Origin: Schmidtea polychroa
Lineage: Eukaryota
Reading direction: 5' to 3'
NCBI GenBank assembly: GCA_044892525.1
Contig: CM097885.1
Span: 4,404,001-4,468,000 of the forward strand
Length of the DNA stretch: 64,000 bases
Shown here: piece by piece, positions 43,581-62,745 of the stretch
Numbering within the stretch: the stretch's first letter is position 1
How the letters are laid out: each line of letters begins with the position of its first letter
The notes under the pieces: model-generated
The model's input: only the letters and a program-made list of their open reading frames with translations
Database searches by the model: none
What the model was told of the DNA's origin: nothing
Position numbers and translations under genes: made by a program

Positions 43581-46059
43581 GGCTCCTAATTAAATGCAAA
43601 TTAAATAATCCCATTTTGCACACTAAAAAATTAACATTTGCTAACTATTTTTGCAAACTAAAAAATAATTTTTGCACACTATAAAATTGATTTTTGCTAA
43701 CTATTTTTTGAAAACTAAAAAAATGATTTTTGCACACTATAAAATCGATATTTGCTAACTATGTTCTGCAAACTAAAAAATAAATATTTGCACACTATTT
43801 TCAAAAATATTTATACATTATAAAATAAAAATTTCAGATATATTTCAATGAATAAAAAAGCATAGAGATTACAATTTATTGTGAATGCTTAAATACAACA
43901 ATTTATAGACATTTAAAAAATGGTTTAACAAAATGTTTTGTATGATGGCTGCATTTTATTTGCACTAGATATAATATATTTTTAGTTCTACTGCAACAGC
44001 AATGGTTTTCTTGCTTTTGCAGGGCGACCTCTCTTTCTTTTGGTTCCAATTGGAACATTTTTCGCTTCGGTTGGAGGGGCTGCAAGCTTTAGTCGAATAG
44101 CTAATCCAACAATGTGTTTGCAAAGCATTTTTTTAAAAAAAGAAGGGCAGTTACAGTCTCCGTTAATCCAGTCATTTTGATCTTTTGGTAAAATAGTAGT
44201 CCATGAAAGAAATGCATTAATTTTAAACTCATCAAACGTTTCCCAGTTGTCAATTCCATCGTAGGTTTCTGTCAAATCTTTTGCAGCAATTTTGTAAACA
44301 ACACCACTCTCTGTTGATTCTGGAGAAATGGTTTTCTTCAACTTTGCCCAATGGTATGAGCTAGTCCAAAGTTCCAAGTCAATTTCTGGTTCGGTTTTGA
44401 TGACTTTAATTCCAGATTCGTAATTGTTGGACCACCTTTCAATCCAATCAACCAATCCAACAGTAAATCTTGATAGTGAGACTCGCTCTCTCATAGAATA
44501 TTCATCTTTCATGACTCGGTTGTATGCCTCAAGGGCATTGTTTGTGCTAGGTGTTAGTTTTTTGGCACCTTCAAACCAATTTTTATTTGATTTCAGCCAT
44601 TCAGCTGTGAAGTATTCGACAAACTCCTTGTTTGCCTTCCACTTTTTCAAGAATAAAATTGATGCTTTTTCAAAAACTTCTCTGGATTGACTGAGTTGCA
44701 AAGAATCAATGTCAGACAAAATTTCCTGTCTTGCATCTTTTGGAATCAAAGAATCCACTTTTTTCTGAACATTTTTTTTCATATGAGCCCAGCACATAAT
44801 CACCAATACGTCTTTGCCAAACACTGCTATGAAAGAGTTTTGGATGCTTTTTGATGCATCAGAAATTAATGTGCTTGGATTGAAGGGAGCATTGAAGATT
44901 TTAGGAACTTCATTCTTCAATGCAGTAAACAAAAATTTGAAGTCCTCAGTTTTTTCATCGGTGCATACTCCAATACCAAAACAATGAAACTGGCGATTGC
45001 GATCTGTTGTACCAATAACAAGAACAGGGAAGCCTTGCCATACAAGTTTGTATGTAGCATCTGCATGAATGTTGTCAGCGTTTAAAGCCATTTTCAACAT
45101 TGTTTTAGATGAAATGAAGTACCGGAAATATCCAGTGTCCTCATATTTAATTTCATATGCAACAACAAATGCTTTGTTATCTGCTTCTGGAACAGCTGAA
45201 TGAATTTGCAACCACTGATTTAATTCTCCAAGGCTAATGATGTTGGCACCATATTTAGACTTTCTCAAGGATGCCAGATGATTATTCAGTTGTGTTTGAC
45301 TCGGAAGGGGTAATTTTTCGTTAGACAAATGTTCTAACATTGCTTTTGGTTTCAATTTTAAAGCAAACAATTTGTCAATTTCAGCTTTGACGGTATCTGT
45401 CATTGTTGTTCTTGTTTTGATGTTGTCACAATCATGTGCATGTCCTGATCTGTATAGAACAAAATCACAAGTGCTGGACTCGTACCACAAGTAAACTGAG
45501 GCTGAACATTGTTCCCCACGAAATGTAACACGATTACAACGGAAAAACCTCTTTTTCCCCTCTTCAGTTTTATTTGTCCGAAAACAAGACCACACTTTTT
45601 CGTTTTTTACAAAATCCTCAGCTTCATTTGAACTTGCAAATGCATTTGCTCTTTTCCAGTCTTTGCAAATTTTTTTCCTTCGAGTTTCAAGTTTTAAAAC
45701 GTGTTCTTCATCTTCATTTCCTGAAGAACAGTATTCTGGAAAAAAGTCAAACTCTGAATTTTTTTTAAATTCCACCATTGCTATAACGACAAAGAAGTAT
45801 TTATTATGAATAAAACAAACATAGTTAGAAAATAATTTATTTATAGTTAGCATTACTATTTATAGTTAGCAATTATTTATTATAGTTAGCAATTATTATT
45901 TATAGTTAGCATTTATTATTTATAGTTAGCATTTATTATTTATAGTTAGCATTTATTATTTATAGTTAGCATTTATTATTTATAGTTAGAATTTATTATT
46001 TATAGTTAGCATTTATAGTGTGCAAATACATTAAAATAGTGTGCATTTAAATTGTAGCG
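43581..46059 (-). mobile_element. Mutator-like element (MULE), apparently complete
   Basis: 9-bp TSD tatttctaa at 43572-43580 and 46060-46068. Imperfect TIRs (ggctcctaattaaatgca / revcomp cgctacaatttaaatgca). Mirrored subterminal repeats tgctaactat/tgcacact on the left and atagttagca on the right. Confidence 0.9.
43988..45778 (-). CDS. MULE transposase with SWIM finger and C-terminal AT-hook-like motif
   Basis: Uninterrupted ORF (ATG at 45778) with HADATYKL, LISDAS, CWAHM, TNNALEAYN (DDE core), CNCPSFFKKMLCKH (SWIM) and KRKRGRPAK. Confidence 0.92.
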   Translation of the reverse strand: MVEFKKNSEFDFFPEYCSSGNEDEEHVLKLETRRKKICKDWKRANAFASSNEAEDFVKNEKVWSCFRTNKTEEGKKRFFRCNRVTFRGEQCSASVYLWYESSTCDFVLYRSGHAHDCDNIKTRTTMTDTVKAEIDKLFALKLKPKAMLEHLSNEKLPLPSQTQLNNHLASLRKSKYGANIISLGELNQWLQIHSAVPEADNKAFVVAYEIKYEDTGYFRYFISSKTMLKMALNADNIHADATYKLVWQGFPVLVIGTTDRNRQFHCFGIGVCTDEKTEDFKFLFTALKNEVPKIFNAPFNPSTLISDASKSIQNSFIAVFGKDVLVIMCWAHMKKNVQKKVDSLIPKDARQEILSDIDSLQLSQSREVFEKASILFLKKWKANKEFVEYFTAEWLKSNKNWFEGAKKLTPSTNNALEAYNRVMKDEYSMRERVSLSRFTVGLVDWIERWSNNYESGIKVIKTEPEIDLELWTSSYHWAKLKKTISPESTESGVVYKIAAKDLTETYDGIDNWETFDEFKINAFLSWTTILPKDQNDWINGDCNCPSFFKKMLCKHIVGLAIRLKLAAPPTEAKNVPIGTKRKRGRPAKARKPLLLQ

Positions 46060-50235: not shown

Positions 50236-51772
50236 TAAGCTAAATTAGCCTTGATTTTCTTTAAGGATGAAATTATTTAAGGCAACCCCAAATGTTGGGT
50301 AATGCAACTGAAATTCAGTGAAATATACTAAATTTGGCCATTAAATTAATTTTAGATATCCTGAGAATGAAATCATTACATTTTAATCAAACACCTGTCC
50401 AAGTTTGATGAGAGTGAGAGAATAATGTAGATCAACCAGTTAATTTAATCGGCTATGAAATTTAAGTGACCTGAGAACATTTCCTTCAATTAGCGTTGTT
50501 TCGACCAGTCAGAGGGGGAATGACATCTACCTCTGACTGGCAGTTTTTGTTTTGATTTTTGTCGCGTCTGTGTGCAGAATTATTGTCAAATTGAGGTGCG
50601 CACACAGATGCGAGGAATTGAAAATTGTTTTTTTGGAAGGTTCGAGTACCATTTTGTTTTAAATGGAGTTTTTTAAAATGAAAAATGTGGTTAAAGTTAA
50701 TATTCATCCAGTGGCTCTATCCTCAATAACTGATGCATTTGAAAGAAGGTCTGAATTACACATGAATCTGAAAAATACGCATTGATTTAATGAAAGAAGA
50801 ATTAAGAAATTAAAGAGGACAGGTTTATATGAAACCTGATCTATCTCAGGTGATAAATGTAAGTAGTGATGTTCTTGAAATGATAACAGTTGTGTTGGAT
50901 TATGTTTCAAAAGTCGTTAATAAAGAAATTTCTGAAGCTTCTGTTTTAAAGATTTGTGTTTACTCGAATCAAGCGTTATGACATTGCCGACATATGTAAA
51001 TTTTAATATGGTCGATGAGCTAATTGTTTGTGAATCGGCACTAACGTTCTAGTCAAGCACTGAGCAAATCGAATAATCCTTATCCGAGCCTAGTGTGAAC
51101 GCGTGATCTGTTCGACTAGTGCTGGTAAAGTAGAAATTTTCACATCGATGAAAGCCTATCGTCTAAATTACGTTGATTGGTTCACTGTCGCTTGATAATG
51201 GACAGTAATGATTTGGACGTAATTTCTAGATTCGATTTTTCTATGATGTGCTTTACTTGAAGTTTTCAACGATAATATCTGCTCACGATAATTGCATCTA
51301 TTCTATTCTTACTGTTAATGATATAGATTATTGTTTGCTATTTATCATTTTTATTTTTATCCATTATTCACAATGATGGCATATCATTTCAACACTTATC
51401 ACATATATTGCCTAGTTTTACAAATATTATGAAAATTATTGAATTAAAAAAAATTCAATTGTGAAACCAAAAGATTAATATAATTTATTCGATTTATTAA
51501 TATTGAATCGATTTCTAAATTATTATTTCATAAAGCAATAATAATTAATTAATCGATTCCTAAATTAATATTACATTATGAAATACATTGATTAGAGAAA
51601 AATGATATTAGTGTAAATATTGATATCGTTAAAAATAGTTGTGACTTAAAATTTAATTTCAGTGAGAGAGGTACCCGTAGCAGACTTAACAAAACCGGCT
51701 ATAGTAGATGGATTGGGCACCGCTAGCACAGTCCCCCCCCCCCGGTCGGAAAAATTAAAAAAAATTTTTTTT

Positions 51773-52504: not shown

Positions 52505-54509
52505 TCAAATTAATCCTGCGAGAGACATTGCATCTCCTACATGCCGCTCCGACATATCTACCAGTAAAATGACAATGATCTCACAGGATTAATAATAGCT
52601 TTTTTATACAAGTAACAAATAGTGCTAGATCGAAAGGCACGCTCCTGAGCAAAAGACAAAGTAGACATGCCTTTACGACCTTCAAGATCATAATATGGCA
52701 GGACAATTGTGACAGCAATTTCCTCCACTTTCCTCAAAAAATCCAAAATACAATTAGGTCCAAAAAAATAATAATAAAATTTAGTATTTGTATAATTATT
52801 AATTAATAAAAGACCTGCTGATATGGGTAAATGTATTTGGTGATATGTTTCGTGTTCAGGTAAAACCGATTCAAAATCGGCATAAATTACGAAGGGAGGT
52901 GTAACGGTTTTTGCGTAATCTGTGAATAATAAATCCTTATTTTTAGGAAGTGTATACAAGGTTATGCCAGTCTGATTTTTACAGCATAGAGCAACATGCT
53001 GATCGAAAGCATTCTTATATCTAAAGCCATTTAAACAATGTGGGCACCAGTTACACCTTATTTGAACATTAACATTTTCATTTAAATGGCAATTCATTAA
53101 TTTGTCCAAGTCTGTCACGGCCGTATAGTGATATTTATCTTTATTACTCAAAAGTAATAAATAAATCGGCCTACCGTCTATAACCTTGGAGCGATGTACA
53201 ATATTAAGATGAGGGTGGTGAGCTACATAATCCTCAGAAATATCACAATCAGAACTGGCTGGATTATAAGACAGAACGTTTATGCTTAAGTTTAAATCTG
53301 GATTTTTCCTTTCGAATTTGGGAATGTTACACAGCCTCATCGAGCAATCTGTGTCTTCATCATAATTTAAAAGATGTAAAAATTCTATATATTTGGCGGC
53401 TCTTTGGTGATTACGACCTATTTCTTCTCTTTTTTAAAAGTGCAAGAATGCTATACAAGAAACACTTATGGTCATTTTTTTTTAACATTAATTATTGCGT
53501 GTTTTAATTTTAATGCAGATGGGGTTTTTATATAACTATGTCCGGATAATCTACTAACGGGTGCGTATTTCGTTAAAATAAAATCTATCTCTAAAATATT
53601 CATTACTCGCCACCCGCTTCCTAAATAAGTGAATTGCTCAATCTTTTCATTTAATTTGCTCACCCCCTCGTTTATAAAGTTTGCTGTAAAAACTTGCGCA
53701 TTGTTTGAAAAATAATTATCCCGGATCTTTTTCAAATTTAATTAAAATTGTAAATTGAATTTTTACATTGCCCATCTTTTCTATTTCCTCTATTAACCTT
53801 TCTTCAATTTTAGATGTTAGGGCTATTTTTACTAAGTTTTGATTTCTTATATCAAATTTTAAAGTTTTTCGCGATCCATTCAAATCGGATTCTACCATAG
53901 GTTCAAACAAAGAGCCGCCTATTTGACATATGTTGAAAGACGTTGAAGCTACACATTCATCATTGATGACTATCACTTCTTGTTGTGTAGAGGGTGCTTG
54001 TTGTGTAAAGGCTGCTTGTTGTGTGAACGATGTTGAAGCTACACATTCATCTTTGCTGATGACTATCACTTCAGGTCGCGATAATTTATTAGGAATATAA
54101 TTTTTAATTAAACCAGCAGGTCTTTTAATAGAATCTTTTTTAATAATATTTTTAATAGTATCTTTTTTAATAATATTTTTAATAGAATCTTTATAATCTG
54201 TTTTAATTGAATCTGTTATAATATTTTTTTTAATAGCATCTTTTTTAATAATATTTTTTTGTAACTTTTTTTGTAAATTTTTGTTATTTATTTTTTTAAA
54301 TAAATCATTTTTTGGAATCGAAAATTGCCCTAAGTGACTACGATGTTTATTAAAAAATGCCTTATATTTTATTTTTTCGCTAGTCACGCATTTGGGACAT
54401 ATAAAAAAGTTGATTGAATTAAACGTTTTTTTATAATATTTTTTCATCGTACGATGGCATTGATCGTTATGGCCAATTGACGATTGGCAGTAATTTGGGT
54501 ATAGTCTAC
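52505..54509 (-). pseudogene. Polinton protein-primed DNA polymerase B, N-terminal half only (frameshifted; polymerase domain deleted)
   Basis: GSGW, SYIKTP...AIINVK/NDHKCFLYSILA, FERKNP, CPHCLNGF...HVALC, FVIYADFES (ExoI) and DHCHFTGRYVGAACRRCN (EndoVII-like insert). Ends abruptly at AT-rich sequence next to the 31-bp array. Confidence 0.9.
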
Positions 54510-54705
54510 CTGTTAAATAATAAAATTAAAGTTTTATTCTTTTTCTATATAGAAAACTAATTGTTACATCTATAAGGATTTATCATCATTTGTTATTTAA
54601 TTCAAATGAACTATATAACAAATGATGATAAATCCTTATAGAAAATAGGTTAATATATTCGAGAGAATATGTTAAATATTAGAGAGACTATAGTAGATGT
54701 GTCAG

Positions 54706-55824
<1,119 letters not shown>

Positions 55825-55843
55825 CATTATTATTATTATTATA

Positions 55844-55927
<84 letters not shown>

Positions 55928-56484
55928 TTAACTATTGTAGATGCACATTGCAAACTACAAGGATTTATAACTATAATTTCGTAATCACTTTTTTAAATAT
56001 TTTCATAATAATTTCATTATTTTTTACAGAAACGTAGTATTTACTTCATATAATCATAATATTTTCATCATAAATTCATAATTTTCGTCATAATTTCATC
56101 ATTTTCATCATAATTTTGATCATAAATCATTTTCATCATTTTCATCATAATTTTGGTCATATAATCATTTTCTTCATAAATCATTTTCATCATAAATCAT
56201 TTTCATCATAATTTTGGTCATAAATCATTTTCATCATAAATTCATAATTTTCATAATTTTCTTCATAAATCATTTTCATCATAATTTTGGTGATATAATC
56301 ATTTTCTTCATAAATCATTTTCATTTTTCTTCATAAATTTTCGTCATTAAATCATTTTCTTCATAAGTTTCATTATATCATAATAATTTTTATCAAATTA
56401 TTTAAAAATGTTTTTATCAAAATATTTAAAAAAAAGTGATTACGAAATTTTAAAGAAATATATATATAAAAAAATAAATCTTAC

Positions 56485-56879
56485 ATTCAGATTCCATGTC
56501 GGAATCATCCTCAGAGAGGACATTACCAATTTCATCATTAATTTCATCATCTTCAGAGAGGACATTATTAATTTCATTATCTATGTCGACATTGAAAACT
56601 GGGGCATTCATAATAATTGAATCGCTAATTGAAACATTTTCTAAAATGAAAAATTAATTTAATAAACTGAAAAATAATAAAATTTTTTTTTCTTTGAAAA
56701 CTGGGGCATAATTAGGGGCATCAGTTTGCCCAATAAATACGACATCATCGTCGCTATTTGAATCATTTTCTGAAATGAAAAAATTAATTTAATAAAAATT
56801 AAAATAATAAATTTACTGAAGATCTTATCCACATTTAGAATCGATTCGTCTTCGGTTACTTGGTACCAGTCGAACACAT
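56485..56879 (-). CDS. Putative small acidic 5' exons of the Polinton pPolB transcript
   Basis: Exons 56879-56817, 56769-~56692 (donor apparently mutated) and 56640-56485, with tttag/ttcag acceptors and gtaa donors. The phase-1 donor at 56484 fits the acceptor at 54510, in frame with ORF 54447. Confidence 0.5.
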
Positions 56880-57390
56880 CTAAAAGAATAAAATAAAATA
56901 TAATAAAATAAATTACCCGTCGTTTCTTAAAATATTATTGTTATTTTGCATAGTAGATGGATAGTAGAAAATTGAAGTTGAATTTTTAAAATTTTAAAAT
57001 AATTGTGACAAATTTTAGATTTGTCAATGTTTATAAAGAGAATGAATATTTTCCTGTCCCAACCAATGAGAATATAGACACACACACATATATACACTGA
57101 ATATTTTACTCTCTCAACCAATCACACGCATGCATGTATGTAATGTAAATTACTCCGAAATTACATGTGACTGCCTTTGTTAGTCATGCCTTTGTTAACT
57201 TGCACTGTACATGCTTCAGGCATAGGTAGTCTTTATGTTACAAATAATAATATTTATTTTAATAATAATAAAATTAATTAAAAATAATAATATTTTTCAC
57301 AATAATAATAATATTAATAATAATAATATTATTAATAATAATAATAATAATATTAATAATAATAATAATAATATTAATAATAATAATAAT

Positions 57391-57421
<31 letters not shown>

Positions 57422-57540
57422 ATAATAATAATATTAATAATAATAATAATATTAATAATAATAATAATAATATTAATCACAACAACAAAGGAAAGGATAC
57501 ATTTATTAAACATCAAATTTTATTAAACATTCATTTTTCT

Positions 57541-57940
57541 TTAAACATCAAATTTTTTGTACAATAACCAAGCTAAACAATGTTGACCACATGTTTGGGT
57601 CAAGGGATTTTGAAACATAGTTTTATTTTACACAATAGGTTTTCCCATTGTTTGTAGTTTTGATATCAACAAAGCCGGGTAATAAAAACCCATAGGATCG
57701 AACACGAATATATTACCAGGTTTCATATCCAATGTTCTCCACCAATATGAGACGATTGAGTATTGACGATTATTGCTTGATTATTGCTCAAATATGGAAT
57801 TTTATCAAGAAGAAAAACTCCAACAAATTCATTTCCCAATATCTGTTTTCCAATTTTATTGACCTGAACAGAACTACTTAAATAAATCCAGAGTATAAAA
57901 AACAACTTACTCCATGACAACTTTTTGTGTTTCAATATAC
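57541..57940 (-). pseudogene. Adenain-like (Ulp1/C5) maturation cysteine protease
   Basis: FVGVF...IIVNTQSSHIGGEHW / IFVFDPMG...FQNPLTQTCGQHCLAWL contains the H-D-Q-C catalytic residues. One frameshift and one stop. Confidence 0.88.
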
Positions 57941-57942
57941 AT

Positions 57943-59156
57943 TTATACCAACACAGTTCTATTTGCAGTAATTTGAACTTCATTTTCAAATACTCCATAT
58001 ATTATAACATGTACTGGTTCAGTAATAGCTTTTGCAAACTTTATATCCAGTCGTAAATTTCCATTTTGAGGTAATTGACTCTGATTTAAATCAAAATCAG
58101 GGGCTAAAACAAATGTAAAAAATGGGTATTTGCTTTTAAAATCTTCTAGAGTTATTCCGCAATTTAAATTTTTATCTAAATAACCCAGATTTCTAACAAT
58201 ACTCTGCATATATGTCGCACAGTAATTGTCATTCTCGAAATCTTGAATATATGTTTCTCTATAATCAGTATTTTTCGAAAAAGTCAATAATGTAACACCA
58301 AAGTTTTTGAAAATTGAGCTGGACGCAGTATATGATCCATTATATTGTGCTTCACTTTGAAATGTTATCAGAATAAAATTAGGCATTCTTCTGTCACCAA
58401 ATATTTGTTCTTTATAGAATGATGAAGCACCTTTAGCAATAGCAAATTGTACAATTTCCTTTGTTTTTAATGGATAAATTGCATGTTTTGAATTAAGACC
58501 CAATTGATGACCTGCTAATACTGAGGGGTCTACTCGAACTCTTCTCACCAATAATTTTGCATCAACTAATTGACATATTGGTGTAGTAGTTGCACTAGTA
58601 AGAGATAATGCAGAATCAGACCTTTTCAGTCTAATATGTACATTAACTCCCGGTAGTAAATATTTCGGTTGCTCCATAAAATCAAGTTGTAATGATGAGC
58701 ACATGGTGAAAACCTTTGAGCCTTTAACCCACTTTTTTCTTTCATCATCTGCTGCTGCATAACCCATGGGAGTAAGACATGTATTTTTAGTATCGGAATT
58801 GTAATTTAAAATAGTTTCTATTAATGCCTTGTGAATGAATGTATTATTTCCACCCTCAATCTTGATATTATTAAATCCCAACAGTGCATCTTTAAAAAAA
58901 GTATGAAACAGGAAATTGTTCGGTATTACATCTGCATCCAAAACTTTTCTATCTTTATCTACAACCTTAATCTGAACAGTCAATAAAGTATCGTTCAAAT
59001 CTAAATATTCGGTTTGTGAACCATTAATATAAAACTCGATATCATTTCTACTATCGGTAATTGAATTCATAGGAAAAACTTCCTCAAATGCCCCAAATTC
59101 TATTACAGCCTGGGGCGACGGTCTATCAAATATACATAATTCAGTTTTACCACAAA

Positions 59157-59160
<4 letters not shown>
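57943..59160 (-). CDS. Polinton major capsid protein (double jelly-roll, PY/hexon-like)
   Basis: Intact 405-aa ORF. N-terminus KTELCIFDRPSPQAVIE...P...DIEFYING...YLDLNDTLL and C-terminus GNLRLDIKF...IIYG.FEN.V.I match Polinton MCP patterns. Lies between the integrase and protease genes. Confidence 0.88.
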
Positions 59161-60104
<944 letters not shown>

Positions 60105-60166
60105 TACAACAAGAAGATTTAAAATTAAATTTAATGTCGGGCAATGAAGGATTAGCACCCATTGTT

Positions 60167-60673
60167 TATGACTGTGTAACTCCACCTAATAATGATAATG
60201 CCAGAGGTATCAAATCCACCTTGTTGTTTATATATAATTTTTCTCATTTGTTGACGATTTTTATTATTTACTAAAGATAACAAAGGTTTCCTATGTTTGC
60301 TCAATAGATGCTTTTTTGATTTACTGATTTTAATCTTGCCTTTGACTACTTTAAGTATAATATTGAGTAAATCATCGACAACAAAATTTGGGAATGATTG
60401 CAATATATTCATTCTTTTCATACTCGGGGCCTTTAACAATGCATTAAAAAATGGAAAACTGCGATGATTTTTAACTACTTTTTTACTGGTTTTACGGGTT
60501 TTACGTTTAGGTTTAGGATTTTTCGAAATAAGATTCATTGCAGAAAAATTTTCAGTTACAAGTTTTTTAGATGGTGTATAACTAGTTGTTGGTGGAACTT
60601 TTGGAACTTTAATACTCTTTCTAATACTTTTTCTTAATTTCCTAATATTTTTCACCCTTGCTTTTAGAAACAT
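60167..60673 (-). CDS. Basic Polinton core/membrane-active-like protein ending QQGGF(LIPLALSLLGGVTQS) after a frameshift
   Basis: Lys/Arg-rich, with the pattern LL...R..IL...N.....V.G.I.I......L.K.RK.L..L......R..I..Q.GGF that I recognise from the Polinton gene usually adjacent to the ATPase. The hydrophobic tail continues in a shifted frame. Confidence 0.6.
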
Positions 60674-60679
60674 TATTAT

Positions 60680-61317
60680 TCATAGAGGTTTTGAACTTTG
60701 TTTATAAACCATGGCACCTTTTGGGTTGAAAATATCTGTTTTTACTCGTAAATCATCGGGACATTGTTGTGTGAAATCAAGAAATATATATCCATGAGGT
60801 ATTTTTGTAGCATCTTGAAATGCACTGATAAGAAAATTACGATTGTTGGGTATGCTTGACCTGCAAGAAAATCAATCACTGTTGCATCTCTAGGATTCTT
60901 GAAAATAACTAAATATTGTACATTTAAATTACGTGTTCGATGTGCCCCACCTTGATGAAATAGATTTTGTGTTATGAAAATAACTGTTACACCGACATGT
61001 CTGCTGATCTTTGTAAATAAATTATTAAAATCTTTTTCTTTATTAGCTTCTTGATACAAATCATCGATAATAATGACATCACCTTTCTTTAATCGGCTGG
61101 ACCAGTTTTTATCGAATCCCTTTACTATTTTCATGTTTTTTAATTTACAGAAACTTGATGGAGTTAATCCATGTTCTTCATCAGCACCCCTATGCCAATA
61201 AATCCTGTTGAATTTTGATTTGAATAAATTTGATTTTAGTAATTTACAAACAAATAATGTTTTTCCACTACCACTCGGACCAACGATTTGGTATACTGCA
61301 TCATTTCTTAATTCCAT
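60680..61317 (-). CDS. Genome-packaging ATPase (A32/FtsK-like), frameshift near C-terminus
   Basis: Walker A GPSGSGKT, Walker B IIIDD, SRH, ITQNLF and FKNPRD. The shifted frame continues AFQDATKIPHGYIFLDF...DDLRVKTDIF to a stop at 60680. Confidence 0.92.
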
Positions 61318-61325
61318 TTCAAAAA

Positions 61326-61390
61326 TTTTATATATGTGTATTTGTTTATATTCGATGATTTAATGAACTCGTACTCAATTTGTATATAAA
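61326..61390. promoter_or_regulatory. Divergent TATA-like boxes between the ATPase and TBP-like genes
   Basis: TATATAAAA on the minus strand (~61326-61334) upstream of the ATPase ATG, and TATATAAA on the plus strand (61383-61390) upstream of the TBP-like gene. The AT-rich background weakens this. Confidence 0.3.
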
Positions 61391-61404
61391 GACTAATTTT
61401 CATA

Positions 61405-61841
61405 AATGATTTAATAAAGTTAGCAAATATAAATTATCGAGGAAATTTTGATGTATCGAATATGAGGTTTCCACCAGGGAAACCCCAGCAAATTATCGAT
61501 AGAAGCGGGAAATATCCGATAATATTTTTCAAGACTGGTAAATGCAGAATCATGGGATGTAAGAAACCTTTGGATATTAATAAATTACAATATCGAATAA
61601 ATAATATTTTACCGTTACTATGGATATGGGACATAGTATCAATCTATATAACATGTCGAAAAAATGTGATTGTATGTTTGAACCGGAATTGTTTCCGGCA
61701 CTAAGACTATTAAAATATAACCCTATATGTGTCAACGTGTTTGCTAGTGGAAAGGTTGTCATGTTGGGGTTGAGAAATTTGGAGTATAGAGAATTTGTTG
61801 ACAATGTTCGAAATGAGATAATTTCATTGGTCGATTTCTAA
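61405..61841 (+). pseudogene. TATA-box-binding protein (TBP)-like gene carried by the Polinton, one frameshift at ~61608
   Basis: Repeat 1 LANINYRGNFDV...IIFFKTGKCRIMGCK and repeat 2 RINNI/TVTMDMGHSINL...MFEPELFPALRLLKYNPICVNVFASGKVVMLG match the TBP consensus LQNIV...IFSSGKMVCTGAK and YEPELFPGL...IFVSGKVVLTG. Start codon unclear. Confidence 0.85.
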
Positions 61842-62745
61842 TTGGTTAATTTCTAATTGGTTATTGATTGATTTAAACAAACGGATTTTTGTTTAGGATT
61901 CATTTATTCAACAACATGTACAACATGATACCCTTTTAAAAAAAAATTTTCCGACCGGGGGGGGGGGTACTGTGCTAGCGGTGTCCTGTGCCAGCGGTGC
62001 CCAATCCATCTACTGGCTATGATATAAAAAAGCTAAATAATTTATTGATTTGGATTTTTTTTGGTTTTCATGTTTGTTTTTTGTATTATTATTTTTCTAA
62101 TCAAGCTATTATCAACTGCTCACAAGAGAGATCGAGTTAACAATTTATTGATCCTTGTGTAAATGTAGGCTTAGCTGGGTTGTTAATTGCTACGTTTAAT
62201 GCTAAATTTAGCTCACTGTTTTTCTTTTCAAATTTTGGGATGTTACATAACTTCATGGGACAATCACTAATTGGGTCAAAATTTATATAGTCTAAAAGTA
62301 GATGGTTAGGGGCCCGCTAAATCCCACCCCCCGAAATTTTTTTTAAAAATTATGTAGGTCAACTCAAAATTTTATACATTTTTATAATTTTTTAAGATTT
62401 TCAATGGTTTTCAACTCTTTTTCTCGAAAATATTATAATTTTTTTACAGTTGAATTTATAACGCATTTTTTAATTTTTAATCATTTAATTATAATAATTT
62501 ATCAGCTCGGCATATATCTGTCAAATCCAGTAAATCCTAGTTTTTGATAATATCATACCATTCTCCAATATAATATCTAAATAGAAATATTATCAACTTT
62601 AAATATTAATAATAAATTTACCATTTTGTTATTTTCAATATTTATATTTACCTGAAACATTTGTATACTAACTTTTCGGCTTTCTAAAATTAAATATTTA
62701 TAGATACAAAATTAAAAATAAATAAATTTTCATCACAATAATTTT

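What the first reader, a model, noticed from the sequence alone, without database searches (positions are those of the whole stretch)
61405..61841. Polinton/adintovirus-like element encodes its own TBP-like protein
Seen: inside the right TIR, divergent from the packaging ATPase, two overlapping frames join into a ~145-aa two-repeat TBP-like sequence. Repeat 2 keeps the E-P-E-L-F stirrup (yeast E186/E188/L189/F190) and the second intercalating Phe (VFASGK). Repeat 1 is shortened and keeps only its second Phe (FFKTGK). Established: the standard Polinton core is pPolB, INT, ATPase, PRO and capsids, while TBP homologues are typical of large DNA viruses. I am not aware of TBP as standard Polinton cargo but could not check the literature. 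Inference: this family may run or redirect Pol II initiation with its own basal factor, for example a late promoter switch or TFIIB sequestration. It is intronless and highly diverged, so it is not a recent host retrocopy.
Basis: partly seen in the sequence, partly recalled or inferred. Interest (0 to 1): 0.92.

Follow-up and report, generated by a model that had tools for sequence, protein, structure and literature searches.

The report
Polinton-encoded miniature TATA-binding protein
The window holds a broken copy of a 145-residue, stripped-down TATA-binding protein that a whole clade of Polinton (Maverick) virus-like transposons carries as a conserved gene, which suggests these elements bring their own basal transcription factor.

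Summary
The TBP-like sequence is real. The second piece of the window copy (61605-61838) matches Pfam TBP at E 1.8e-9, above the curated cut-off. The window copy is a pseudogene: it lacks the start codon and has a 13-nt frame-breaking deletion after 61608.

Intact copies elsewhere in the genome are one 145-aa ORF (Pfam TBP E 1.6e-15). 26 of 30 fetched copies are intact.

The gene is not in a TIR. In two full ~17.6-kb elements it lies about 2.9-3.1 kb inside the right TIR, and the window copy is cut off at ~61923.

The gene belongs to a conserved family of 144-162 aa proteins: 109 clusters in one search, and 60 representatives at E<=1e-30 in another. In metagenome contigs it sits beside Polinton ATPase, integrase, protease, capsid-like and PolB genes.

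AlphaFold gives a TBP saddle (pLDDT 96) whose first repeat has no helices. Three of four intercalating Phe and the E-P-E-L-F stirrup are kept.

Function as a TFIIB-recruiting TATA binder is inferred, not shown. The only precedent I found in print is a figure-legend "TBP" label in the adintovirus paper (PMC8502044).

The parts
61417..61608 (+). TBP-like gene, first piece (repeat 1, residues 1-64 of the intact 145-aa form). The start-codon position 61417-61419 reads AAG here.
   Evidence: 100% aa identity to residues 2-64 of an intact copy; alignment with two intact copies; Pfam TBP E 0.02.
61608..61611 (+). Break point: 13 nt present in intact copies are missing after 61608, which shifts the frame.
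   Evidence: 3-way DNA alignment; frames.
61611..61841 (+). TBP-like gene, second piece (end of the linker plus repeat 2, residues 70-145, and the stop). It carries FEPELFP and VFASGK.
   Evidence: (Pfam TBP E 1.8e-9, 37.8 bits).
61318..61416 (.). Intergenic region shared by the divergent ATPase and TBP-like genes. TATATAAA lies at 61383-61390, 34 nt before the start-codon position.
   Evidence: Pairwise diversity among 30 copies is 0.056 here against 0.18-0.19 downstream of the gene.
60695..61317 (-). A32/FtsK-like packaging ATPase, frameshifted near its C-terminus in this copy.
   Evidence: Pox_A32, RNA_helicase; two tblastn pieces.
60212..60673 (-). p177, a basic protein of unknown function that is conserved in related elements.
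59247..60104 (-). rve integrase, interrupted by a long in-frame trinucleotide array (poly-Ile run in the ORF).
   Evidence: The intact form has rve plus chromo domains.
57946..59160 (-). p406, candidate double-jelly-roll major capsid protein (a lead only).
   Evidence: 97% to copy B; Atlas nearest clusters 'DJR-like', score 0.98. No Pfam or PDB sequence hit.
57544..57998 (-). Adenain-like cysteine protease, frameshifted in this copy.
   Evidence: The intact form matches Peptidase_C5 at E 4.6e-6.
52579..54447 (-). N-terminal half of the protein-primed-type PolB (76% to residues 1-647 of copy B's PolB). The remainder is missing or displaced.
   Evidence: PolB motifs seen in the intact form.
61842..61923 (+). 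Last 80 nt of element homology. The copy is truncated here and unrelated repeat DNA follows.

Best explanation
IDENTITY: window 61417-61841 is a dead copy of a real, conserved gene of a Polinton/Maverick-type element. The gene encodes a 145-residue 'mini-TBP'. Its second repeat is a canonical TBP repeat. Its first repeat keeps the beta-strands but has lost both helices, so the predicted protein is a TBP saddle with only half of the usual upper surface.

MECHANISM (inferred): the protein binds A/T-rich, TATA-like core promoter DNA of the element in the minor groove. It recruits host TFIIB and Pol II through the unchanged C-terminal stirrup (E-P-E-L-F). It lacks the repeat-1 helices that, from recall, host regulators and TFIID/TFIIIB partners use. 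This would give the element initiation on its own few promoters that is TFIID-independent or escapes host regulators.

SHOWN: homology, predicted fold, conservation, purifying selection, Polinton context, and TATA-type promoters in front of the gene.

INFERRED: DNA binding, TFIIB binding, and the effect on transcription.
For: IDENTITY
- Pfam TBP on the intact ORF: E 1.6e-15, 57.1 bits against a cut-off of 22.9.
- Family profile against PDB: all 35 hits are TBPs, best E 8.1e-21.
- hhalign against a canonical TBP: probability 98.8%, E 1.1e-16, 130 columns across both repeats.
- AlphaFold: pLDDT 96.2, pTM 0.84. Repeat 1 is all-beta; repeat 2 has both helices.
- Foldseek against PDB: all 44 hits at E<=0.001 are TBPs, TM 0.67-0.79.

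A REAL GENE
- 26 of 30 fetched copies have the intact 145-aa ORF, and 20 of them encode the identical protein.
- By my reading of the table, 134 of 150 scored copies have the 154-codon open frame and 3 have a longer one.
- dN/dS between two sublineages is 0.18, similar to the ATPase at 0.16. Pooled over 29 copies it is 0.063, and 0.099 for codons 1-68, which were not part of the query.

A FAMILY
- 109 clusters at 37-97% identity and 96-232 aa.
- 60 representatives at E<=1e-30.
- 14 invariant and 18 nearly invariant columns in 59 sequences.

CONTEXT
- 40 of 80 metagenome loci carry at least one Polinton core gene next to it. Among loci with at least 1.5 kb on one side, 32 of 43 do.
- Its identity to the copy here tracks that of the core genes. 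In L049: TBP 47%, PolB 45%, integrase 54%. In L106: TBP 35%, PolB 31%, integrase 34%.

FUNCTIONAL RESIDUES
- F38, F97 and F113 are invariant. E93, P94, E95, (L96), F97 match the canonical EPELF.

PROMOTERS
- In 57 distinct upstream regions, 31 of 44 TATAWA occurrences start between -50 and -31 of the start codon.
- 10 of 13 ATPase upstream regions have one starting between -50 and -25.
Against: - There is no experimental or expression evidence.
- The first Phe of repeat 1 is an invariant Pro. By my reading of the alignment, the canonical central polar contacts are absent or replaced: the Asn of strand 1 and the Thr of strand 5, recalled as yeast N69/N159/T124/T215. The short protein starts after the first Asn position; the other three read Ser, Met and Leu. 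The DNA target may therefore not be a canonical TATA box.
- In this genome's element the TATATAAA is only 34 nt from the ATG, and a TCAT lies 19 nt after it. That spacing is shorter than the roughly 30 nt seen in relatives.
- The pooled dN/dS contrast with the ATPase (0.063 against 0.63) is biased, because the copies were chosen by similarity to repeat 2 of the TBP-like protein.
- The copy in the window itself cannot make the protein.
Confidence: 0.6

Rival explanations
1. Decoy or competitor. The mini-TBP does not drive the element's own promoters. It titrates host TFIIB, or occupies host TATA boxes without productive assembly, and so damps or re-programmes host transcription.
For: The TFIIB-contact stirrup is kept exactly, while much of the rest of the upper surface is gone and one DNA-kinking Phe is lost. 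That pattern fits a protein that keeps one partner and loses others.
Against: Three of four Phe and the whole beta-saddle are kept and invariant, which argues for DNA binding. Element genes carry TATA-type promoters at a fixed distance, which gives it plausible targets of its own. Nothing tested here separates the two readings.
Confidence: 0.15
2. Architectural DNA bender with no role in transcription. The TBP fold is used to bend A/T-rich DNA at the element's ends or origin for protein-primed replication, integration or packaging.
For: The gene usually lies next to the packaging ATPase: co-oriented upstream of it in 24 loci and divergent in 2. It is often beside p136, whose model resembles viral ssDNA-binding proteins. 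The central base-contact residues differ from canonical TBP.
Against: The residues kept best outside the sheet are exactly the TFIIB stirrup (E93, P94, E95, F97 invariant or nearly so), which a pure DNA bender would not need. Gene order around it varies: it follows the protease in 9 loci.
Confidence: 0.15
3. Recent host retrocopy, or a neutral passenger picked up by this one element.
For: The gene is intronless. The copy in the window is decayed.
Against: - Identity to solved TBPs is 20-26%.
- The host's own canonical TBP locus is separate. With a canonical TBP as query, only 6 matches reached E<=1e-12, none of them at the fetched copies' places.
- The family occurs in Polinton contigs whose core genes are only 27-76% identical to those here.
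- dN/dS is 0.06-0.18.
Confidence: 0.02

Closest known systems
Cellular TATA-binding protein core (Pfam PF00352; solved e.g. 1ytb, 1cdw, 1vol, 1mp9)
   Same: Homologous by sequence and predicted fold. Two tandem repeats. Repeat 2 has both helices, both Phe and the EPELF stirrup.
   Different: - 145 aa against a core of about 180.
- Helix 1 of repeat 1 is reduced to a loop and helix 2 of repeat 1 is deleted.
- The first Phe of repeat 1 is an invariant Pro.
- The central Asn/Thr contacts are not kept (residue roles recalled).
- Invariant Cys at 43, 48 and 109 (C48 nearly invariant).
- Encoded by a mobile element.
TBP homologues of large DNA viruses (phycodnaviruses, mimivirids, marseilleviruses, asfarvirus B263R, iridoviruses, ascoviruses)
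   Same: Virus-encoded TBP-fold proteins. They are the best structural matches in the viral library: E 1.2e-8 to 1e-3, TM 0.54-0.79.
   Different: All listed matches at E<=0.001 are 186 aa or longer and 8-20% identical. From recall, most of these viruses carry their own RNA polymerase. No gene matching an RNA polymerase was found among the 12 ORFs of the element scanned against Pfam.
Herpesvirus late-gene TBP-like proteins (BcRF1 / UL87 / ORF24 class)
   Same: Closest in proposed working: from recall, a nuclear DNA virus supplies its own TBP-like protein to bring host Pol II to its own promoters. Members appear as weak structural matches: Ranid herpesvirus ORF75 at E 3.7e-3, U58 at 6.9e-3, BcRF1 at 2.1e-2.
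   Different: These proteins are much larger (440-1005 aa). There is no detectable sequence relationship here. They lack the canonical EPELF stirrup (recalled, not tested).
'TBP' gene label on a MELD virus or element, Fig. 5 of Starrett et al. 2021 (PMC8502044)
   Same: A TBP homologue noted in a mid-size PolB/integrase element related to Polintons (figure legend and section 3.4 read).
   Different: Only a legend entry, in a section on non-animal datasets. The figure itself is not held. The one supplement held as text has no 'TBP' or 'TATA'. There is no family, structure or conservation analysis, so I cannot tell whether it is the same short family.

Membership tests
TBP (Pfam PF00352) | Sequence match to the family model above the curated cut-off | tested here: met
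   Intact ORF: 57.1 bits against 22.9, E 1.6e-15. Window piece 2: 37.8 bits.
TBP (Pfam PF00352) | Two tandem repeats that form a saddle of ten beta-strands capped by four helices | tested here: not met
   Two repeats and a TBP-like saddle are predicted (TM 0.67-0.79). Repeat 1 has no helix at all by DSSP, and one of its stirrup strands is not assigned. It is a homologue with a reduced architecture.
TBP (Pfam PF00352) | Four DNA-kinking phenylalanines, two per repeat | tested here: not met
   Three of four are present (F38, F97, F113, all invariant). The fourth position is an invariant P23.
TBP (Pfam PF00352) | C-terminal stirrup that contacts TFIIB (E-P-E-L-F) | tested here: met
   FEPELFP aligns residue for residue with YEPELFP of a canonical TBP. 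E95 and F97 are invariant; E93 and P94 are nearly invariant. Binding itself was not tested.
TBP (Pfam PF00352) | Binds TATA DNA and nucleates a pre-initiation complex | not testable with these tools
   Needs protein biochemistry.
Polinton / Maverick (element that carries the gene) | Protein-primed-type family B DNA polymerase | tested here: inconclusive
   The 1334-aa ORF shows ExoI-like YADFES, motif A-like DINNLYG, motif B KLYNNSLYG and motif C GDTDS. There is no Pfam PolB hit and no PDB sequence hit.
Polinton / Maverick (element that carries the gene) | Retroviral-type (rve) integrase | tested here: inconclusive
   rve at E 1.2e-5, but 26.0 bits against a cut-off of 32.6. Chromo at E 3.1e-4, 21.1 bits against 25.1.
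Polinton / Maverick (element that carries the gene) | A32/FtsK-type packaging ATPase and adenain-like protease | tested here: met
   Pox_A32 29.5 bits against 22.8. Peptidase_C5 26.9 bits against 21.3.
Polinton / Maverick (element that carries the gene) | Jelly-roll major and minor capsid proteins | tested here: inconclusive
   For p406 the nearest Atlas clusters are 'double jelly roll-like' (score 0.98, a lead only). There are no Pfam or PDB sequence hits. No fold was predicted.
Polinton / Maverick (element that carries the gene) | Terminal inverted repeats and a 6-bp target-site duplication | tested here: inconclusive
   TIRs found: 684 nt at 93% in copy A and about 510 nt at 81% in copy B, about 17.6 kb apart. 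The exact termini and the target-site duplication were not resolved, because the ends are tandem repeats.

The most novel reading that the evidence does not exclude
A broad clade of Polinton/Maverick elements encodes its own basal transcription factor. This is a natural 'minimal TBP' that keeps the DNA saddle and the TFIIB stirrup but has shed the repeat-1 helices that host regulators and TFIID/TFIIIB partners dock on. With it the element could assemble a Pol II pre-initiation complex on its own TATA-type promoters, independently of TFIID and insensitive to host TBP regulators. That may contribute to bursts such as the one in this genome, where hundreds to thousands of near-identical copies are seen.
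Probability: 0.35. Interest if true: 0.8.

Novelty: new variant of a known kind. Interest (0 to 1): 0.6.

Why it matters
- Polintons are usually described as depending on the host for transcription, and their catalogued core is replication, integration and morphogenesis genes. A conserved element-encoded TBP would add a transcription module to that list.
- It would parallel, in a 15-20 kb element, what herpesviruses and giant viruses do with their own TBP-like factors.
- The reduced architecture is a natural deletion experiment on TBP. It shows which parts a DNA-plus-TFIIB-binding core can do without.
- The gene is a compact marker for this Polinton clade in genomes and metagenomes.

Tried and rejected
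- EXPRESSION: no RNA holder is listed for the ATPase-TBP-p136 stretch. The four runs laid were contigs of unknown kind and cannot show transcripts, starts or strands.
- VIRAL CONTIG COLLECTION: the scan gave only one relative, a 182-aa canonical-length TBP at 25% identity in a 44.7-kb contig, which is not this family.
- PDB BY SEQUENCE: phmmer found nothing for the PolB or for p406.
- ATLAS: no usable hit for p136.
- EARLIER FINDINGS: three look-ups returned nothing.
- SECOND SET OF COPIES: I wanted copies chosen by the ATPase instead of the TBP gene, to remove ascertainment bias from dN/dS. I used the pair A against B instead.
- TERMINI: exact termini and the target-site duplication were not resolved.
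- READING THROUGH THE BREAK: not done in the window copy. The two pieces were analysed separately, and the intact form was taken from natural copies.
- COMPLEX PREDICTION WITH TFIIB: not run. No contiguous host TFIIB sequence could be obtained, and an archaeal stand-in would pass or fail mainly by likeness to solved TBP-TFB structures.
- STARRETT SUPPLEMENT: the one file held as text has no 'TBP' or 'TATA', so I could not find which element carries their TBP label.
- p98, the ORF just downstream of the TBP gene here, had no tblastn match in any of the 80 metagenome loci. I do not count it as part of a module.

Full report
WHAT IS AT THE COORDINATES

On the + strand, the frame that starts at 61405 reads NDLIKLANINYRGNFDVSNMRFPPGKPQQIIDRSGKYPIIFFKTGKCRIMGCKKPLDINKLQYRINNI.... 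A second frame reads ...TVTMDMGHSINLYNMSKKCDCMFEPELFPALRLLKYNPICVNVFASGKVVMLGLRNLEYREFVDNVRNEIISLVDF and ends at a stop at 61839-61841.

Against Pfam TBP (PF00352), the second piece scores E 1.8e-9 and 37.8 bits (curated cut-off 22.9). The first piece scores E 0.02 and 15.2 bits. This is far more than chance would give.

The gene is divergent from an A32-like ATPase on the minus strand (60742-61317 as an ORF). About 100 nt of A/T-rich DNA lie between them, including TATATAAA at 61383-61390.

THE WINDOW COPY IS BROKEN; THE GENE IS NOT

A six-frame search of the window's own genome (781 Mb) with the second piece returned 3540 first-look candidates. 150 were scored, and 149 of those besides the window's own were 99% identical.

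By my reading of that table:
- 134 of the 150 lie in a 154-codon open frame.
- 3 lie in a longer open frame.
- 13 lie in a shorter one.

In those copies the gene is a single ATG-to-stop ORF of 145 aa.

Aligned with two such copies, the window copy differs in two ways:
- It reads AAG at the start-codon position (61417-61419).
- It lacks 13 nt after 61608, which is what splits it into two frames.

Of the 30 fetched loci, 26 carry the intact 145-aa ORF, and 20 of those encode the identical protein. The intact ORF scores E 1.6e-15 and 57.1 bits against Pfam TBP.

THE ELEMENT, AND WHERE THE GENE SITS IN IT

I read two full copies with 40 kb of context each.

Copy A has inverted repeats of 684 nt at 93%, about 17.6 kb apart. 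Copy B has about 510 nt at 81%, at a similar distance.

Gene order in copy B:
- Minus strand: PolB (1334 aa), then a 155-aa adenain-like protease, p406, p123, p236, a 368-aa rve+chromo integrase, p177, and a 208-aa A32-like ATPase.
- Plus strand, after the divergent promoter: the TBP-like gene, p98, p136, and an inverted partial PolB-like ORF.

The PolB has no Pfam PolB hit. It does show ExoI-like, A, B (KLYNNSLYG) and C (GDTDS) motifs, plus an OTU-like NDHKCFLYS stretch. For p406 the nearest Atlas clusters are 'double jelly roll-like', which is a lead only.

The TBP-like gene ends about 2.9 kb (copy A) and 3.1 kb (copy B) inside the inner edge of the right TIR. It is therefore not in the TIR.

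The window's copy is a decayed fragment:
- PolB N-terminal half at 52579-54447.
- Protease with a frameshift.
- p406 intact.
- Most of p123 and all of p236 missing.
- Integrase interrupted by a trinucleotide array.
- ATPase frameshifted.

Homology stops at about 61923. No inverted copy of 61300-61925 exists in the window. The only inverted match nearby is a 40-nt repeat at 61947-61986 against 51715-51753, which belongs to other repeat DNA.

A CONSERVED FAMILY TIED TO POLINTONS

The 145-aa protein found 109 clusters at 37-97% identity, 96 to 232 aa long. All carry PF00352 in the precomputed annotation.

A profile of 59 members (144-162 aa) found 3301 proteins at E<=1e-3, which includes ordinary TBPs. 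It found 709 at E<=1e-10 and 60 at E<=1e-30, among 1.84 billion representatives.

The alignment has 14 invariant and 18 nearly invariant columns. These include N4-I5-N6-Y7, F38, G41, C43-R44, M46-G47-C48, Q67-S68, E93-P94-E95, F97-P98-A99-L100-R101, P107, C109-V110-N111, F113 and G116-K117.

A metagenome scan found 177 stretches that encode relatives, and 80 were kept. tblastn with copy B's proteins gave the following:
- At least one Polinton core gene lies beside the TBP-like gene in 40 of 80 loci.
- Among the 43 loci with at least 1.5 kb on one side, 32 have a core gene.
- 6 of the remaining 11 have the accessory p136.

The position of the gene varies:
- Upstream of and co-oriented with the ATPase in 24 loci.
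- Divergent from it in 2 loci, as in this genome.
- Just downstream of the protease in 9 loci.

Its divergence tracks the core genes:
- L049: TBP 47%, ATPase 73%, integrase 54%, p406 57%, PolB 45%.
- L106: TBP 35%, ATPase 39%, integrase 34%, p406 28%, PolB 31%.

SELECTION

Between copies A and B the gene has dN/dS 0.18 (dS 0.048). This compares with ATPase 0.16, p123 0.17, p406 0.06, p177 0.26 and p136 0.39.

Pooled over 29 copies, dN/dS is 0.063, and 0.099 for codons 1-68, which were not in the search query. The ATPase gives 0.63 in the same pooled analysis. Nucleotide diversity is 0.013 in the gene against 0.08 in the ATPase and 0.18-0.19 downstream.

These pooled contrasts are inflated, because the copies were chosen by similarity to the TBP-like protein. 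A set ascertained on the ATPase could not be fetched.

FOLD AND RESIDUES

AlphaFold with the 59-sequence alignment gives pLDDT 96.2 and pTM 0.84. The strands are 2-10, 25-28, 35-38 and 42-48, with no helix in repeat 1. Repeat 2 has strands 62-74, 90-92, 99-102, 109-113 and 117-123, and helices 81-85 and 129-142.

All 44 Foldseek matches in PDB at E<=0.001 are TBPs, with TM 0.67-0.79 and 20-26% identity. The profile search of PDB gives only TBPs, with archaeal and microsporidian entries first (E 8e-21 to 6e-19) and human TBP at 3.7e-12. This shows no special affinity to animal TBP.

hhalign against a canonical eukaryotic TBP aligns both repeats (probability 98.8%, E 1.1e-16) and shows the following:
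- Helix 1 of repeat 1 is cut by 7 residues.
- Helix 2 of repeat 1 is removed (13 residues).
- KRF of the canonical TBP aligns with GKP, so the first Phe becomes the invariant P23.
- The other three Phe are kept.
- YEPELFPG aligns with FEPELFPA.

Reading the same alignment against the recalled roles of canonical residues:
- The short protein begins after the first central Asn position.
- The second Asn is Ser.
- The two central Thr are Met and Leu.

The sequence preference may therefore differ from a classical TATA box.

The host genome has its own canonical TBP locus (59% identity to the canonical query, with stops that suggest introns) and five further TBP-like matches. With a canonical TBP as query, only these 6 matches reached E<=1e-12.

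PROMOTERS

In 57 distinct upstream regions of family members, 31 of 44 TATAWA occurrences start between -50 and -31 of the ATG. Many of these regions show TCATT or TCATA about 15 nt before the ATG (by eye for the second motif). 10 of 13 ATPase upstream regions have a TATAWA starting between -50 and -25.

In this genome's element, the minus-strand genes from ATPase to protease are packed or overlapping without TATA boxes of their own. TATA-like boxes stand in the shared ATPase/TBP intergenic region and 41 nt before p136.

This looks like a small number of TATA-type Pol II promoters, which are the natural targets for a TBP-like factor. That last step is inference.

HOW IT MOST LIKELY WORKS

Shown: homology, predicted fold, conservation, purifying selection, Polinton context, and TATA-type promoters.

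Inferred: the protein binds and bends A/T-rich core promoter DNA of the element, and brings in host TFIIB and Pol II through the unchanged stirrup. It lacks the repeat-1 helices, and probably a regular N-terminal stirrup. From recall, these serve TFIIA, the TAF1 N-terminal domain, Brf1, NC2 and Mot1/BTAF1.

I put about 0.95 on the identity (a conserved Polinton mini-TBP, with a dead copy in the window). I put about 0.45 on this mechanism. The rivals are a decoy role and a non-transcriptional DNA-bending role.

COMPARISON WITH WHAT IS KNOWN

Virus-encoded TBP homologues are well known in large DNA viruses. The best matches in the viral structure library are all from such viruses, at 186 aa or more and 8-20% identity. 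Herpesvirus late-gene TBP-like proteins appear as weak matches.

For Polinton-like elements I found one trace in print. The legend of Fig. 5 in Starrett et al. 2021 (PMC8502044) and the preprint's legends list 'TBP' among gene labels, in a section on non-animal datasets (passages and section 3.4 read). The figure is not held. The supplement held as text does not contain the term.

Six full-text searches found no description of a TBP family in Polintons:
- Polinton + TATA-binding protein.
- Maverick + TBP + Polinton.
- adintovirus + TATA.
- Mavericks + TATA-box binding.
- Maverick + TATA-binding.
- polinton-like + TBP.

The one other relevant-looking hit concerns mirusvirus-like elements. Subscription-only papers are not covered.

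In the protein collection, 10 of the 109 clusters carry a source name calling them TBP (JGI automatic annotation), 1 is named 'hypothetical protein', 3 carry only a MGnify tag 'FL=1', and the rest carry none. The five clusters I looked up carry no name.

VERDICT

The window copy is a pseudogene of a conserved, selected gene. The gene family is a distinctive reduced TBP tied to a clade of Polintons. Its function is inferred and untested. It is a new variant of a known kind (viral TBP homologues).

Noticed in passing
whole genome G000 (e.g. C1, C2, C3, C81); window 52579-61923: This Polinton family is hugely amplified. With the ATPase as query there were 5058 first-look candidates, and all 150 scored matches were listed at 100% identity, dispersed on several contigs in both orientations. 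With the TBP piece there were 3540 candidates, and 149 of 150 scored were at 99%. First-look counts are loose and are not copy numbers.
   Followed up: partly
L040:7319-7726 (+); relatives e.g. L049:1788-2135, L044:1503-1838: p136 is an accessory gene found next to the TBP-like gene in many contigs. Its model is confident (pLDDT 90.1). The best structural matches are viral ssDNA-binding proteins: ASFV CP312R at Z 7.5, DUF2815 at Z 7.3, T7 gp2.5 at Z 6.9, phage Enc34 SSB at Z 6.8 and Foldseek prob 0.99. It is probably the element's OB-fold SSB. All Z values are under 8, so this is a lead.
   Followed up: partly
copies A (L031-L034) and B (L035-L038): The two full copies are 96-99% identical in protein from p406 to p136 (integrase N-terminal part 93%), but only 75% identical in PolB, with saturated dS. 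At the DNA level the PolB region is 74.7% identical against 91-92% for the rest. This suggests modular recombination between element lineages.
   Followed up: partly
L040:7973-9040 (+) = copy B right part: A 356-aa ORF near the right end of copy B resembles the C-terminal part of PolB in inverted orientation (71% nt identity to the copy's own PolB 3' region). Copy A has different DNA there.
   Followed up: no
window 59544-59715; L040:4132-4216: Trinucleotide arrays lie inside the integrase ORF. In the window copy they read as a very long poly-Ile run. Copy B has an AAT x28 array inside an otherwise intact 368-aa integrase ORF.
   Followed up: no
window 43988-45853 (-): A 621-aa ORF with a MULE transposase domain (E 9.9e-10) and a weak SWIM zinc finger match (E 4.3e-3, 17 bits, below the 19.6 cut-off). 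It is an unrelated DNA transposon.
   Followed up: no
protein P0201 (365 aa, on a 1.7-kb contig): A family member has the short-TBP core (FSNGKCRLMRCK ... YEPELF ... NPLCVNIFSSG) flanked by long low-complexity N- and C-terminal extensions. It could be a domesticated cellular copy or a mis-called ORF.
   Followed up: no
G000:C2:182637078-182637623, C1:195751353-195751880 and others: Besides a canonical TBP locus with apparent introns, the genome has five further TBP-like matches. These include uninterrupted open frames of 215 and 212 codons at 38% and 29% identity to a canonical TBP. They may be TBP-related factors or other viral TBPs.
   Followed up: no
window 61947-62014 and 51703-51753: A short inverted repeat (40 nt at 95%, plus 29 nt) with a G-run flanks the Polinton fragment on both sides.
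   Followed up: partly
coded runs X5, X6 (organism B): Contigs from a second, differently labelled organism hold about a fifth of the sampled words of the ATPase-TBP stretch. One 338-nt contig covers L040:5869-6192 with 3 differences. A close relative of this element, TBP-like gene included, occurs beyond the window's organism.
   Followed up: no
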